From assembly GCA_963635575.1 (NCBI GenBank), contig CAVHFU010000001.1, positions 54,720 through 118,719 of the forward strand: a DNA stretch of 64,000 bases. The letters are read 5' to 3'. Positions 26,005-30,906 of the stretch are shown piece after piece (the first letter of the stretch is position 1; each line of letters starts with the position of its first letter). The notes under the pieces are model-generated. The model had not been told where the DNA came from. It ran no database searches and saw only the letters and a program-made list of their open reading frames with translations. This DNA is from a bacterium (GTDB taxonomy: Bacteria > Bacillota > Clostridia > TANB77 > RGIG9151). The position numbers were made by a program, and so were the translations under genes.

Positions 26005-28401
26005 TTACGTTTCCGTCGGCATTTCAGTATTTGTGCCATTTAAAACCCTATATTCCGCATCCTCTTGTATTGAAATGCTATCATTCCAATATGTTTTTCC
26101 ATTAGCTAGTTTATAGTAAACAGGGTATTTTGTAAAATCATATATCTTTCCTTCATGCATTTTTTTATGTCTTGCATCTAAGAAGTCCGTTTTTCCTGTG
26201 CCTTTTTTCTTATTGCCTTTAGCATCTCTTGTAACATAGTATAAAGTCTTAAATGCTAATTGATTAACCGCATGAGGTTTAATATTATCAGTATATTTAA
26301 TACCAACACCAATACCTTCATCCGACAATCCCGTGCCATCTTTTACCTGGCTAAGTGGTGTCATAGATAACGAATATTTATAATCCATACACTCACGTCT
26401 TCCAAAAACTGCTGACCAATATTCACTATCTTCTACGTTTGTATCACCAAACACTAGTTGAGTCTTTGTATTAGATACAACAACCTGTTTGTAATACTTC
26501 ATTGATTCTGTACGAGCAAGTTGAGATAAGTTTTGAATTGCAACAATCATAGCACAACGATATTTTCTAAAAAGAGTAAAGCATGTCTCTGTCTCCTTGT
26601 TAACGAAATCAGGGAACTCGTCTATATATAGAAAATGTGGAATTCTTGTGCTTTCGTTACCGGGTCTACGGAGCACCGCATCTTGCATAGACAATATAAA
26701 GAACATTCCAAACGGCTTAGAAAGTAATCCACCAAGTTCACCACGTCTTGTACATACAGATACACATTGTCCCTCACTAAGTACCTTATCAAAATCAAGA
26801 TTCTTGTCTCTTGAGCATAAAATCTTTTTAACCATCTCGTGACGCATTAAATTATCAAGTTGTGTTGTAGCTCCATATAAAAACTTCTCGGTTTCTTTTC
26901 TTCCGCTTCCTACTGTACCGGGAATAGGTCTGCCATTTAAGTCGTATGGTGGATTATAGAAGTTCTTTTCAAAATACTTAACCAAAATTCTATATTCTTC
27001 CGCAAGTTCCTCATCCTTTTTAAGTTCTTCACACATAGCCTCAACTAAATTGTAGTCATACATCATCTTAAGCATATCTTCTAATGTCGGCATCTCGCCA
27101 TTATGCATTCTAGGATACATTACCTTTAATAATAGTGCTAAGTTTTCCAAAGCTTGTTGAGTAACTTGACCGAAGAACACGTTATTACCACCCGGATTTT
27201 CGCTTTCATACATCCCTTGTAAAACGTTAGAAATAATACTTGCCGCTTTATCCGGATCTGCATTTTGGAAAGGATTCATTCCGTAAGAATCAGGATCTTG
27301 TGGATCTATTGTTTTTACTTCTATGCCATAGTTTTTAGCAACCTTCTTAAAATTATCGCAATAATTACCATCAGGCTCTACAACAGTAATACCTAAATCT
27401 TTATAAACATATTCACCGGTAGAATGATTTTGATTTTTAATCATATCGCCAAAAAACTGTTCAAATTCTTCTTCTTTTCCCTCTTTAGGCTTTATAAGTC
27501 CTAATGAGAAATTTCTATTTAATTCTTCATTAGAATAAGGAGATTCAATATACGCAATTCCCTTTGAAAGAGCTTCTATCGCTAAACGTTTTCCCTCTTC
27601 TCTGAAGAAGAACTTTTTCTCTAAGTCGCTTGCACACATAGGCAAAAGCAATGTAGACGTCTTACCGGTACCGGTAGCACCCTGAATCAATGTAGACTCC
27701 ATACGCCTATTTTCCGGAACGACAACCATTTGACCGGAAGTTGCATCTTTACACACAGCCACTTCACAAGTATATTTACCAGTTGCCATAGCCTTAGGAG
27801 TATTGTCGATAATCTTCATATCTCTAATCACTTCAGTCGTATCAGGCCTTCCCATCGCATCTGCTGTGAATGAACAAGATACAGCAATAACTAAAGTTGG
27901 AATATATATAGTACCAGCTCTTATGGCTCCTATCATCTTATCTCCAGCTTCACTCCAAGCCATAGCTAAATTTTGGCTTCCTGCAAGTGATAGTAAATAG
28001 CAGATGAAAGTATTGGACCATTCCGCTAACATAAAACTTCCAAGTAATGAAACAGCTAAAATCGTGAAAACAAAAACTTTTCTTCTACCCACGCGATTTT
28101 TTCCATATGTCGATGAACAAAAATACGCATATCCGGCAAGCGGAATCAAAAAAGCGAGTGAATACTCGAGTGAGCTCCACATATGTACATTTTTTACAGG
28201 ATTAAAATTGTTAACAGACAATAGTGAAAAAAGAATATTTGAGCTTTTTGAATATCCTTCTACATTAATTCCACCATAATTTGCAAAAAATATCATCATA
28301 ATAAATGTAAAAAATCTATTTAGAATTAAAAGACCCGCCATTATATAAAAAACCTTACACATAAAATCTGCATCTTTCGTTTTTGCCTTTAAATAGTCCA
28401 C
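26005..28401 (-). CDS. VirD4/TraG/TrwB-like type IV coupling protein (T4CP) family ATPase, membrane-anchored, paralog 1
   Basis: N-terminal TM helices. LIQGATGTGKTSTLLLP is a Walker A identical in style to TrwB GATGTGKS. YIDEFPDF is a DEFP Walker B. IAIQNLSQL is the Q-x-x-x-Q-L T4CP motif. 798 aa. Confidence 0.55.
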   Translation of the reverse strand: MDYLKAKTKDADFMCKVFYIMAGLLILNRFFTFIMMIFFANYGGINVEGYSKSSNILFSLLSVNNFNPVKNVHMWSSLEYSLAFLIPLAGYAYFCSSTYGKNRVGRRKVFVFTILAVSLLGSFMLAEWSNTFICYLLSLAGSQNLAMAWSEAGDKMIGAIRAGTIYIPTLVIAVSCSFTADAMGRPDTTEVIRDMKIIDNTPKAMATGKYTCEVAVCKDATSGQMVVVPENRRMESTLIQGATGTGKTSTLLLPMCASDLEKKFFFREEGKRLAIEALSKGIAYIESPYSNEELNRNFSLGLIKPKEGKEEEFEQFFGDMIKNQNHSTGEYVYKDLGITVVEPDGNYCDNFKKVAKNYGIEVKTIDPQDPDSYGMNPFQNADPDKAASIISNVLQGMYESENPGGNNVFFGQVTQQALENLALLLKVMYPRMHNGEMPTLEDMLKMMYDYNLVEAMCEELKKDEELAEEYRILVKYFEKNFYNPPYDLNGRPIPGTVGSGRKETEKFLYGATTQLDNLMRHEMVKKILCSRDKNLDFDKVLSEGQCVSVCTRRGELGGLLSKPFGMFFILSMQDAVLRRPGNESTRIPHFLYIDEFPDFVNKETETCFTLFRKYRCAMIVAIQNLSQLARTESMKYYKQVVVSNTKTQLVFGDTNVEDSEYWSAVFGRRECMDYKYSLSMTPLSQVKDGTGLSDEGIGVGIKYTDNIKPHAVNQLAFKTLYYVTRDAKGNKKKGTGKTDFLDARHKKMHEGKIYDFTKYPVYYKLANGKTYWNDSISIQEDAEYRVLNGTNTEMPTET

Positions 28402-30906: not shown

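What the first reader, a model, noticed from the sequence alone, without database searches (positions are those of the whole stretch)
26005..30906. Two tandem paralogous VirD4/TraG-like coupling-protein ATPases with no T4SS, relaxase or mobile-element context
Both proteins (798 and 828 aa) carry the full T4CP signature set: N-terminal TM anchor, a GATGTGKTS Walker A (the TrwB-type variant), a DEFPDF Walker B and the IAIQNLSQL motif. They are colinear paralogs. They sit between the infC-rpmI-rplT operon and a murD-like cell-wall locus, have their own promoter, and no relaxase, VirB4, integrase or pilus-biogenesis genes occur within at least 25 kb on either side. T4CPs normally act as homohexameric substrate receptors of conjugative systems. 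A chromosomally fixed tandem pair, possibly a heterohexamer, with no secretion channel partner suggests a repurposed translocase, whether for DNA, protein or cell-envelope-linked transport. I am not aware of this being described.
Basis: partly seen in the sequence, partly recalled or inferred. Interest (0 to 1): 0.75.

Follow-up and report, generated by a model that had tools for sequence, protein, structure and literature searches.

The report
Chromosomally fixed tandem coupling-protein ATPases
Two neighbouring genes encode membrane-anchored motor proteins of the kind that normally feed DNA into bacterial mating machines, yet here they belong to a family that an uncultured group of gut Clostridia has inherited vertically as ordinary chromosomal genes, so a plasmid-transfer motor appears to have been taken over by the cell for a purpose still unknown.

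Summary
Genes B (28420-30906, 828 aa) and A (26005-28401, 798 aa) are co-transcribed paralogs (55% identity). They are membrane-anchored P-loop ATPases that pass the Pfam T4CP thresholds, and the predicted fold matches Cagbeta/VirD4, TrwB and DotL best. The 64-kb window holds housekeeping genes and no VirB4, relaxase or integrase. Two details fail: PilB/PilT lie 7-10 kb away, and the Walker A string is generic rather than TrwB-specific.

The pair is not an oddity of one genome. It belongs to a family seen in at least 273 species-level genomes, all 80 retrieved being uncultured gut or rumen Clostridia MAGs. The family sits in core-genome neighbourhoods and diverges at the same rate as the essential gene pth, so it is inherited vertically. 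Its origin is conjugative. In 34 of 87 loci the single-copy gene lies beside a MOBC-type (Replic_Relax) relaxase homolog, and in 27 beside an S1-domain protein. The same trio occurs on a Clostridium plasmid that carries a VirB4-like gene, and the sister clade adds TraC-like and VirB4-like genes.

The A/B duplication is old. Both copies keep every catalytic motif, and A has lost most of the acidic C-terminal tail. A mixed-ring DNA-coupling motor is the most likely reading, but its partners in this genome are unknown. I rate it a new variant of a known kind, with moderate to high interest.

The parts
28420..30906 (-). Gene B: 828-aa T4CP-like ATPase, the upstream gene of the pair. It keeps an acidic C-terminal tail of about 80 aa.
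   Evidence: ORF. Pfam TraG-D_C 32.8 and T4SS-DNA_transf 27.9 bits, both above cut-off. 55% identical to A. The B-ortholog clade is monophyletic with about 30 clusters.
26005..28401 (-). Gene A: 798-aa T4CP-like ATPase, the downstream gene of the pair. GTG start; C-terminal tail truncated to about 33 aa.
   Evidence: ORF. Pfam TrwB_AAD_bind 37.8, T4SS-DNA_transf 35.0 and TraG-D_C 34.7 bits, all above cut-off. AF2 model pLDDT 75.8. Foldseek best hits Cagbeta 8dol, TrwB 1e9s and DotL 6sz9.
27802..28401 (-). N-terminal membrane domain of A (about aa 1-200), with 3-4 transmembrane helices and a poorly predicted loop at aa 43-70.
   Evidence: Model helices 11-39, 77-96, 103-138 and 142-183. Hydropathy peaks at 20-38, 109-127 and 156-174.
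27658..27681 (-). Walker A of A (GATGTGKT, aa 241-248).
   Evidence: Invariant across 18 family members.
26617..26634 (-). Walker B of A (FLYIDE, aa 590-595), followed by FPDF.
   Evidence: Invariant columns Y592-P597.
30199..30222 (-). Walker A of B (GATGTGKT, aa 229-236).
29158..29175 (-). Walker B of B (FMYIDE, aa 578-583).
28423..28665 (-). Acidic C-terminal tail of B (about aa 748-828). This is the putative substrate or adaptor docking tail, retained from the single-copy ancestor.
   Evidence: Median tail length is 81 aa in B orthologs, 107 aa in singletons and 33 aa in A orthologs; the acidic fraction is 0.24.
28402..28419 (-). B-A intergenic spacer of 18 nt, with a GGCGGTGA Shine-Dalgarno sequence 7 nt before the GTG of A. 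It indicates co-transcription.
   Evidence: Sequence read directly. The order B then A, with a short spacer, is conserved in L007, L015, L016, L017 and L105.
30927..30955 (-). Sigma-70-like promoter candidate (TTGACT, 17 nt, GATAAT) upstream of B.
   Evidence: 10 of 12 matches. It is only suggestive, because the number of such sites in the region equals the chance expectation.
31008..31049 (-). Hairpin (AGCAACAG...CTGTTGCT) plus T-run immediately after murD. It is a likely terminator that separates the murD operon from the pair.
   Evidence: Sequence read directly. The scan tool did not call it because the loop exceeds 8 nt.

Best explanation
A and B are two active subunits of a chromosomally fixed, vertically inherited type IV coupling protein (T4CP) from a Firmicute lineage that is ancestrally paired with MOBC-type (Replic_Relax) relaxases.

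Shown. Both are membrane-anchored P-loop ATPases with a T4CP fold and intact catalytic motifs. They arose from one old tandem duplication, are co-transcribed in the order B then A, and have been kept in dozens of lineages. The wider family is a core-genome gene of uncultured gut Clostridia that descends from a plasmid-type DNA-transfer module made of a T4CP, a MOBC relaxase homolog and an S1/OB-fold protein, with TraC-like and VirB4-like genes in some lineages.

Inferred. The two paralogs assemble into a mixed ring at the membrane. B keeps the ancestral acidic C-terminal tail that docks the substrate or an adaptor, and A has lost it. The ring uses ATP to recruit and push a nucleoprotein substrate, most likely relaxase-processed single-stranded DNA, towards a VirB4-type channel. 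That channel would be encoded elsewhere in the genome or supplied by a resident conjugative element, as in CloDF13-style mobilisation. The biological output could be chromosomal DNA export or exchange, or another cell function, and is not known.
For: Identity: Pfam T4CP families score above cut-off. The AF2 model shows a TM domain, a nucleotide-binding domain, an all-alpha insert and a small C-terminal beta domain. Foldseek ranks Cagbeta/VirD4, TrwB (TM-score 0.64-0.68 on the target) and DotL first.

Both copies active: all 147 family-invariant columns and the Walker A, Walker B and IQNLSQL motifs are kept in both. Of 192 singleton-conserved columns, 158 are retained in A and 163 in B, and only 4 are changed in both.

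Old, stable duplication: the A and B clades each span about 27-30 clusters at 90% identity, and gene order is constant. A second, independent duplication appears in the sister clade, where P0067 and P0077 are 70% identical and share a contig length.

Vertical inheritance: at least 273 GTDB species representatives carry the family, and the 80 retrieved are all Clostridia MAGs. The neighbours are core genes: pth in 42 of 87 loci, plus rplU/rpmA/obg, HU and a SpoVB-like gene. Median T4CP identity is 51% against 49% for Pth, with Spearman 0.79.

Conjugative ancestry: the neighbour c2 hits PF13814 at 25-30 bits against a cut-off of 25.3. That family corresponds to the MOBC relaxases (PMC5357655) and has a PD-(D/E)XK fold (PMC3424549). 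The c2 model is consistent with a winged helix plus a restriction-endonuclease-like domain. c2 co-diverges with the T4CP (rho 0.89). A homologous T4CP + c2 + S1 trio and a DUF87/VirB4-like gene lie on C. beijerinckii plasmid p1. Replic_Relax overlaps the T4CP homolog on B. cereus pBFI_1. VirB4-like and TraC-like genes are linked or co-resident in the sister clade.

Tail asymmetry. From established knowledge, the C-terminal tails of TraD and DotL dock relaxosome or adaptor proteins.

Paradigm: CloDF13 encodes a MOBC relaxase and its own T4CP (MobB, with an enlarged TM domain) and borrows a helper plasmid's T4SS (PMC7431656).
Against: None of c2, the S1 protein, VirB4-like, TraC-like or Tad genes is present in the 64-kb window or within 10 kb of any of the 7 tandem-pair loci examined. 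The tandem clade may therefore have lost the relaxase and work without one. Hetero-oligomerisation is untested. No oriT-like conserved element was found: the T4CP-c2 spacer varies from 18 to 420 bp. Housekeeping-level conservation is unusual for a DNA-transfer function. Similarity to canonical T4CPs is remote, at 13-14% identity to solved structures, with no PDB hit by sequence profile. NCBIfam equivalog cut-offs are missed by a wide margin.
Confidence: 0.5

Rival explanations
1. T4SS-independent repurposed translocase. The pair forms a self-sufficient membrane pump, for example an FtsK/SpoIIIE- or Streptomyces TraB-like DNA pump acting at division or sporulation septa, or an exporter of protein or envelope material, and needs no VirB4 channel or relaxase.
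For: No relaxase or VirB4 lies within 26-33 kb in the window or within 10 kb in six other tandem-pair loci. The pair relocates among housekeeping neighbourhoods as a self-contained two-gene unit. The TM domain is enlarged to 3-4 helices and is conserved, with S97 and P168 invariant. Divergence is at a housekeeping rate. A SpoVB/MurJ-like flippase recurs nearby in 32 of 87 loci, including the window. The organism has sporulation genes such as gpr and a spoVB-like gene.
Against: A and B retain 82-85% of the positions conserved in singletons that are physically linked to a relaxase homolog, so no functional shift is visible. The all-alpha domain, which is the substrate-binding part in known T4CPs, is the most conserved region. 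No solved or characterised T4CP is known to work without a channel (established knowledge). Whether FtsK/SpoIIIE is absent from these genomes was not testable.
Confidence: 0.27
2. A decaying remnant of an integrated conjugative element or plasmid, made of non-functional or selfish leftovers.
For: Isolated T4CP genes in chromosomes are usually read this way. The nearest annotated relatives are plasmid genes.
Against: The ORFs are intact in every lineage and 147 columns are invariant. Identity tracks that of Pth. The genes are syntenic in the core genome across at least 87 loci. Composition is native. The window has no integrase, repeats or tRNA.
Confidence: 0.03
3. An accessory ATPase of a type IV or Tad pilus system.
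For: PilB/PilT lie 7-10 kb away in the window. In L001 and L010 a complete Tad/Flp operon ends less than 100 bp upstream of the gene on the same strand.
Against: PilB, PilT or TadA homologs fall within 10 kb in only about 5 of 87 loci. L001 and L010 are close relatives, so they count as one observation. The fold is that of a T4CP, not a PilB/GspE-type ATPase.
Confidence: 0.05
4. A component of an anti-phage defence system, or a member of another P-loop clade (HerA, FtsK or DndH-like).
For: HerA-based defence complexes and DndH-C appear lower in the fold-search list. An AbiE toxin-antitoxin pair lies 13 kb away.
Against: PADLOC returns only a weak generic P-loop match (mads_8, 30 bits). FtsK_SpoIIIE scores below cut-off. 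T4CPs outrank HerA and VirB4 by 5-6 orders of magnitude in E-value. There is no nuclease or SIR2 partner, and the gene sits in the core genome.
Confidence: 0.03

Closest known systems
Canonical T4CPs: TrwB (R388), VirD4/Cagbeta, DotL, TraD
   Same: N-terminal membrane anchor, RecA-like nucleotide-binding domain with Walker A and B, an inserted all-alpha domain and a variable acidic C-terminal tail. These are the best structural matches, and the Pfam families score above cut-off.
   Different: Only 13-14% identity, and no hit to any solved T4CP by sequence profile. The membrane domain has 3-4 helices over about 200 aa, rather than two as in TrwB. There is an extra conserved C-terminal beta domain. 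The genes are chromosomal, vertically inherited and present as two paralogs, with no adjacent T4SS or relaxase.
MOBC relaxase + T4CP modules of Firmicute plasmids (B. cereus pBFI_1 and pXO1-like plasmids; C. beijerinckii p1; C. botulinum pFWSKR40E1-type plasmids)
   Same: Direct homologs: 33-37% identity over 82-85% of the protein for the Clostridium plasmids and 25-29% over 42-59% for Bacillus. The Replic_Relax gene is adjacent or overlapping. The C. beijerinckii plasmid also has the c2 and S1 homologs and a DUF87/VirB4-like gene.
   Different: The plasmid proteins are longer (920-1000 aa), lie on extrachromosomal elements with recombinases and T4SS genes, and are single-copy. To my knowledge their function has not been characterised.
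CloDF13 MobB (T4CP) / MobC (MOBC relaxase) mobilisation module
   Same: The same logic as the ancestral module: a MOBC-type relaxase plus the element's own T4CP with an enlarged TM domain (three helices, about 150 aa), working with a T4SS encoded elsewhere (PMC7431656). It is the best model for how a T4CP can function with no adjacent channel genes.
   Different: No significant sequence similarity to MobB (hhalign probability 6.6%). CloDF13 is a small proteobacterial mobilisable plasmid, not a chromosome. The window itself has no relaxase.
Phage 'DNA translocation operon' (Bacillus phage 0305phi8-36 orf200/orf201; SPO1)
   Same: A MOBC-like relaxase plus a VirD4-like ATPase found outside any conjugative element, with no T4SS (PMC3357382).
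   Different: The phage ATPase lacks a TM domain. Its function is also unknown and it is dispensable in the laboratory. tblastn found no phage homolog beyond one 16%-coverage hit.
TcpA/TcpB of Clostridium perfringens pCW3
   Same: Two paralogous coupling-type ATPases encoded by one clostridial system (my own knowledge; the TcpA TM-domain deletion is cited in PMC7431656).
   Different: TcpA and TcpB are FtsK/SpoIIIE-like and plasmid-borne within a full tcp conjugation locus. No similarity was detected here, since the plasmid search returned no pCW3-family hits.

Membership tests
Type IV coupling protein (VirD4/TraG/TrwB/TraD superfamily) | P-loop nucleotide-binding domain with Walker A and Walker B | tested here: met
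   GATGTGKT and F[LM]YIDE are present in both proteins and invariant in the family.
Type IV coupling protein (VirD4/TraG/TrwB/TraD superfamily) | Match to the curated family profiles above threshold (PF02534, PF10412, PF12696) | tested here: met
   A scores 35.0, 37.8 and 34.7 bits against cut-offs of 20.1, 20.5 and 22. B scores 27.9 and 32.8 above cut-off, while PF10412 at 17.5 is below.
Type IV coupling protein (VirD4/TraG/TrwB/TraD superfamily) | N-terminal transmembrane anchor | tested here: met
   3-4 TM helices within aa 1-190. This is larger than the two-helix anchor of TrwB.
Type IV coupling protein (VirD4/TraG/TrwB/TraD superfamily) | T4CP fold with an all-alpha domain inserted in the nucleotide-binding domain, closer to T4CPs than to VirB4, HerA or FtsK | tested here: met
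   Foldseek gives Cagbeta 3e-11, TrwB 1.6e-10 (TM-score on target up to 0.68) and DotL 5.5e-7, against VirB4 about 1e-5 and HerA 4e-5. The helical block at aa 383-480 lies between the Walker motifs.
Type IV coupling protein (VirD4/TraG/TrwB/TraD superfamily) | Genetic linkage to a relaxase and a VirB4-containing T4SS | tested here: not met
   Absent from the 64-kb window and from seven tandem-pair loci. Met only in relatives: a relaxase homolog in 34 of 87 loci, and VirB4-like genes in L014/L101, L102 and L097.
Type IV coupling protein (VirD4/TraG/TrwB/TraD superfamily) | Hexameric ring and DNA-dependent ATPase activity | not testable with these tools
   Only monomer prediction was available, and there is no biochemistry.
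Named T4CP subfamilies (NCBIfam conju_CD1115, TraD_Ftype, VirD4 PRK13850) | Score above the equivalog cut-off | tested here: not met
   Best is conju_CD1115 at 38.4 bits against a cut-off of 250; TraD_Ftype scores 24 against 521.
MOBC-associated T4CPs (CloDF13 MobB type) | Adjacent MOBC (PF13814) relaxase gene | tested here: not met
   Not in the window. Present next to single-copy family members and plasmid homologs.
MOBC-associated T4CPs (CloDF13 MobB type) | Sequence similarity to MobB of CloDF13 | tested here: not met
   hhalign probability 6.6%, restricted to the Walker B region. The CloDF13 record looks frameshifted, so the test is weak.
FtsK/SpoIIIE DNA translocases | PF01580 match above cut-off | tested here: not met
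   13.9 and 13.8 bits against a cut-off of 24, covering the P-loop only.
Known anti-phage defence ATPases (PADLOC models) | Significant match to a defence-system protein model | tested here: not met
   Only mads_8 at 30.6 and 20.6 bits, a generic P-loop match.

The most novel reading that the evidence does not exclude
A large clade of uncultured gut Clostridia has domesticated a conjugation-derived DNA-translocation apparatus (T4CP, with or without a MOBC-type nuclease, an S1/OB-fold protein and a VirB4-like ATPase) as a vertically inherited, housekeeping-grade cellular function. That function could be species-level chromosomal DNA exchange or export, or a T4SS-independent DNA pump. In the window's lineage the motor has become an obligate heteromeric A/B ring that works without a linked relaxase.
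Probability: 0.3. Interest if true: 0.8.

Novelty: new variant of a known kind. Interest (0 to 1): 0.6.

Why it matters
T4CPs are regarded as hallmark genes of mobile elements, and genome-mining tools count an isolated chromosomal T4CP or relaxase as a sign of a decayed or mobilisable island. This family behaves differently. It is a core gene: it is syntenic, inherited vertically, and as conserved as pth, and its relaxase-like neighbour is even more conserved. That pattern indicates that the host has taken over a DNA-transfer motor for its own use in an abundant but uncultured part of the gut and rumen microbiota.

If the function is chromosomal DNA exchange, it would be a host-encoded gene-transfer route in Firmicutes. 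If it is independent of a T4SS, it would be the first coupling protein known to work without a channel. The recurrent tandem duplications, with loss of the tail in one copy, also offer a natural test case for heteromeric T4CP rings. In practice, these genes will produce false 'IME/ICE' calls in mobilome surveys.

Tried and rejected
1. Sequence search of PDB with the family profile found nothing, even at E<10. Fold comparison was needed instead.
2. Rfam and tRNA scans of the window found nothing.
3. I searched the window and the tandem-pair loci for c2, S1, Tad, VirB4, TraC-like, VirB6-like and hydrolase homologs with tblastn and HMMs. None was found.
4. I looked for an oriT-like conserved element in the T4CP-c2 spacer. 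Its length varies from 18 to 420 bp, so I dropped this line.
5. I tried to place c2 or VirB4 on the same contigs as tandem-pair genes by matching contig lengths. This worked for singletons (123173, 53208, 42408, 40056 and 17052 bp) but gave no match for the tandem clade. Only 120 of 4728 and 120 of 489 hits are listed, so the result is inconclusive.
6. The CloDF13 MobB comparison showed no significant similarity, and the record appears frameshifted.
7. The R388 record for TrwB could not be fetched. The P-loop peptide search showed the motif is generic.
8. The phage collection held no real homolog.
9. PADLOC gave no defence assignment.
10. The pilus link was rejected on frequency, about 5 of 87 loci.
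11. The literature searches found no description of this chromosomal family.
12. Fold matches for the c2 model were all weaker than E = 1e-3. I treat them as consistent with a winged helix plus a restriction-endonuclease-like domain, not as proof.
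Full report
1. What is in the window

Two minus-strand ORFs occupy exactly the reported coordinates. B lies at 28420-30906 (828 aa) and A at 26005-28401 (798 aa, GTG start). They align end to end at 55% identity. Each has a hydrophobic N-terminal region of about 190-200 aa, a GATGTGKT P-loop, an F[LM]YIDEFPDF Walker B and an AIQNLSQL motif.

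Pfam places both in the coupling-protein families. A scores above cut-off for TrwB_AAD_bind (37.8 bits), T4SS-DNA_transf (35.0) and TraG-D_C (34.7). B scores above cut-off for the last two. FtsK_SpoIIIE reaches only about 14 bits against a cut-off of 24. The NCBIfam equivalog models for named T4CP subfamilies are missed by a wide margin, the best being conju_CD1115 at 38 bits against 250. A profile of the family finds no solved structure by sequence. The family is therefore a distant branch.

An AlphaFold2 model of A (pLDDT 75.8) shows four long N-terminal helices, a RecA-like domain with a helical insert at about aa 383-480, and a small C-terminal beta domain. Foldseek ranks Cagbeta/VirD4 (3e-11), TrwB (TM-score on target up to 0.68) and DotL first. 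DndH-C, VirB4 and HerA score 5-6 orders of magnitude worse.

2. Context in the window

All 64 kb are housekeeping or envelope genes. In order they are:
- lgt, SLH proteins, rseP, cdsA, uppS and frr
- maf, mazG, PilT, PilB, a FAD synthetase and a UvrD-like helicase
- a SpoVB-like flippase, rsmD, then rplT-rpmI-infC
- genes A and B
- murD, a MurL-like epimerase, a GerE regulator, gpr, a U32 peptidase and yebC
- an AbiE toxin-antitoxin pair, further SLH proteins and a HipA-like gene

There is no VirB4/DUF87, relaxase, integrase or tRNA, and GC content is uniform.

A hairpin plus T-run follows murD. A TTGACT-17-GATAAT site precedes B. Only 18 nt, containing a GGCGGTGA ribosome-binding site, separate B from A. 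The two genes therefore look like their own bicistronic unit, although the promoter scan is no richer than chance.

PilB and PilT lie 7-10 kb from A. The Walker A string is generic, found in KaiC and DEAD-box proteins, rather than a TrwB signature.

3. The family outside the window

A homolog search returned more than 350 proteins. A scan of one genome per GTDB species found at least 273 species with a relative. The best 80 are all uncultured Clostridia MAGs from rumen, rabbit, chicken and human gut. An exhaustive profile search found 427 representatives (50%-identity clusters) at E<=1e-30.

I called ORFs in 87 non-redundant loci and clustered them. In 82 loci the gene is single-copy. Its neighbours are core genes: pth in 42 of 87, plus rplU-rpmA-obg, HU, a SpoVB/MurJ-like flippase in 32 of 87, rpsF-ssb-rpsR, rluB/rluD and the rpoA-rplQ block.

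Across pairs of genomes the protein's identity tracks that of the adjacent Pth. The medians are 51% and 49%, with Spearman 0.79. This is the pattern of long vertical inheritance under purifying selection. It is not the pattern of a mobile or decaying element.

4. Where the family came from

In 34 of 87 loci the gene converges on a 314-318-aa protein that I call c2, and in 27 also on an S1-domain protein. c2 matches Pfam Replic_Relax (PF13814) just above cut-off, at 25-30 bits against 25.3. PF13814 corresponds to the MOBC relaxase superfamily (PMC5357655, Table 1) and has been assigned to the PD-(D/E)XK nuclease fold, usually fused to an HTH domain (PMC3424549). An AF2 model of c2 (pLDDT 79.6) gives only weak fold matches. 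They are thematically consistent: a PadR/MarR-like winged helix followed by restriction-endonuclease-like domains such as FokI, PaqCI, BamHI, Card1 and the R2 RLE.

c2 is a very large family, with 4728 clusters, some annotated 'replication-relaxation family protein'. It is more conserved than Pth (median 62%) and co-diverges with the T4CP (rho 0.89).

The nearest annotated relatives of A are on large Clostridium plasmids, at 33-37% identity over 82-85% of the protein. On C. beijerinckii p1 the T4CP homolog is accompanied by homologs of both c2 (6e-21) and the S1 protein (3e-20), and by a DUF87/VirB4-like ATPase. The C. botulinum pFWSKR40E1-type plasmids carry the T4CP homolog with a DUF87 gene and a peptidase. 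On B. cereus pBFI_1 a Replic_Relax gene (51 bits) overlaps the T4CP homolog. The pXO1 homolog is annotated 'FtsK'.

The chromosomal family therefore descends from the Firmicute module of a MOBC relaxase plus a T4CP. The same logic is known from CloDF13, whose MobC relaxase and own T4CP (MobB, with an enlarged three-helix TM domain) use a helper plasmid's T4SS (PMC7431656). It is also known from a 'DNA translocation operon' in Bacillus phages (PMC3357382). Direct similarity to MobB was not detectable, so CloDF13 is an analogy and not a demonstrated relative.

5. Is there a channel partner?

- In the sister clade of the window's lineage the module is larger. L014/L101 and L102 read T4CP(s), c2, S1, a divergent family-A polymerase, a TraC-like protein and a VirB4-like ATPase (CD1110-like, 165 bits).
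- L101 also carries a second VirB4, a TrbL/VirB6-like protein and a glucosaminidase/M23 hydrolase.
- In the MAG that contains L001, the polymerase, TraC-like and VirB4-like trio sits on another contig, next to folC and the sigF operon.
- VirB4-like relatives are numerous and conserved, with 489 hits and 47-64% identity among those listed, many of them on long contigs.
- Across the 87 loci, however, a VirB4 lies within 10 kb only once, and pilus ATPases only about five times. The Tad operon directly upstream in L001 and L010 is effectively a single observation.

For the window's own clade, no c2, S1 or VirB4 gene lies within reach in seven loci. Whether these genes exist elsewhere in those genomes could not be tested with the tools available.

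6. The duplication

A neighbour-joining tree, rooted on the plasmid homologs, shows one duplication at the base of the window's clade. The A and B orthologs form separate groups, each with about 27-30 clusters at 90% identity. The order B then A is kept in every case.

The pair occupies different housekeeping neighbourhoods in different lineages:

| Locus | Neighbouring genes |
|---|---|
| window | infC / murD |
| L007 | htrA / secA |
| L105-L107 | ksgA-dnaG-sigA / atp operon |

It therefore behaves as a self-contained unit.

Both paralogs keep all 147 family-invariant columns. Of 192 columns conserved in singletons, A keeps 158 and B keeps 163, and only 4 are altered in both. Neither copy is a degenerate subunit, and no shift of molecular function is visible.

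The clear asymmetry is the C-terminal tail. Singletons carry a long acidic tail (median 107 aa). B keeps about 81 aa of it and A only about 33 aa. A second, younger tandem duplication appears to have occurred independently in the sister clade. P0067 and P0077 are 70% identical to each other, and I infer that they share one contig from their matching contig lengths.

7. Most likely mechanism

Shown: these are two intact, co-transcribed, membrane-anchored T4CP-fold ATPases. They belong to a core-genome family of conjugative ancestry that has been maintained by selection.

Inferred:
- They form a mixed ring in which B supplies the tail that docks the substrate or an adaptor.
- The substrate is relaxase-processed DNA, as for the family's ancestors.
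- Transfer needs a VirB4-type channel encoded elsewhere or borrowed from a resident element.

I give this about 0.5. The main rival, at about 0.27, is that the tandem lineage has dispensed with the relaxase and channel and acts as an autonomous translocase. The remnant, pilus-accessory and defence readings are each disfavoured by specific tests.

8. Novelty and verdict

I found no description of a vertically inherited chromosomal T4CP family, or of its tandem A/B form. It belongs to a known protein kind in an unusual evolutionary and genomic state, so I rate it a new variant of a known kind. The interpretation 'no partner, hence repurposed' goes further than a 64-kb window allows, but it remains a live possibility. 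Interest: 0.6.

Noticed in passing
window 31050-34578 (-): The 'murD-like' gene is a true MurD by NCBIfam (TIGR01087, 327 bits against a cut-off of 212). It is followed by a 410-aa protein that matches the Xanthomonadales MurL epimerase (UDP-MurNAc-L-Ala-L-Glu epimerase) at 266 bits, below the 700-bit equivalog cut-off, and then by a 340-aa protein with no family. This suggests a MurD2/MurL-type route (L-Glu ligation followed by epimerisation) in a Clostridium-like organism.
   Followed up: partly
window 15878-18631 (-): Adjacent PilT-like (349 aa) and PilB-like (560 aa, T2SSE + MshEN) type IV pilus ATPases lie 7-10 kb from gene A. No pilin or PilC gene was identified nearby in my annotation.
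   Followed up: partly
window 25825-25990 (-): A leader of about 120 nt precedes infC. It has its own TTGACA-17-TAAACT promoter-like site and a hairpin plus T-run (25863-25840) directly before the infC ribosome-binding site. It looks like a transcription attenuator, yet no Rfam family, L20 leader included, reached its gathering score.
   Followed up: no
window 43660-45086 (-) and 61041-61937 (-): An AbiEii/AbiEi type IV toxin-antitoxin pair and a separate HipA-like kinase gene are the only defence or toxin-antitoxin genes in the window.
   Followed up: no
window 40707-41447 (-): A 246-aa protein gives a sub-threshold match to tRNA-His guanylyltransferase (Thg1; 25.4 bits against a cut-off of 29.2). 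This family is uncommon in bacteria.
   Followed up: no
L097 6334-11932; L101 4107-11995; L102 5712-12004: A divergent family-A DNA polymerase of 795-876 aa recurs immediately upstream of TraC-like and VirB4-like genes in three genomes. Only its C-terminal part of about 230 aa matches polymerase models (96 bits against a cut-off of 640), so it is not the housekeeping PolI. In one genome the trio sits next to folC and the sigF operon. A polymerase linked to T4SS ATPases is unexplained.
   Followed up: partly
L001 1-9902; L010 1-9908: A complete Tad/Flp operon ends less than 100 bp upstream of the T4CP gene on the same strand. It comprises CpaE-like, TadA, TadB, TadC and Flp pilin genes, DUF5702, a CDI_toxin_EC869-like protein, DUF6382 and an A24 peptidase.
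   Followed up: partly
L001/L097 (GCA_050260055.1) and L010 (GCA_050258375.1): These MAGs are labelled Ignavibacteriales and Deltaproteobacteria in NCBI. Their contigs nevertheless carry spoVT, sigF-spoIIAB-spoIIAA and Clostridia-type synteny, so the taxonomic labels look wrong or the bins are mixed.
   Followed up: no
c2 genes, e.g. L014 12979-13935 (-): The relaxase-like protein c2 is more conserved across these genomes (median 62% identity) than the essential Pth (49%), and it forms a family of 4728 clusters. Such conservation is unexpected for a relaxase homolog and suggests a core cellular role.
   Followed up: partly
L099 7202-21962: On a 536-kb contig a VirB4-like gene sits in a cluster with two TrbC/T4SS-pilin genes, a TraC-like gene and seven large proteins with no family. 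No T4CP or relaxase lies within the 10 kb upstream or among the roughly 10 kb of genes downstream that were retrieved.
   Followed up: no
window 45252-49313 (-): Two tandem paralogous FAD_oxidored (PF12831) proteins of 695 and 654 aa form another tandem duplicate pair in the same window.
   Followed up: no
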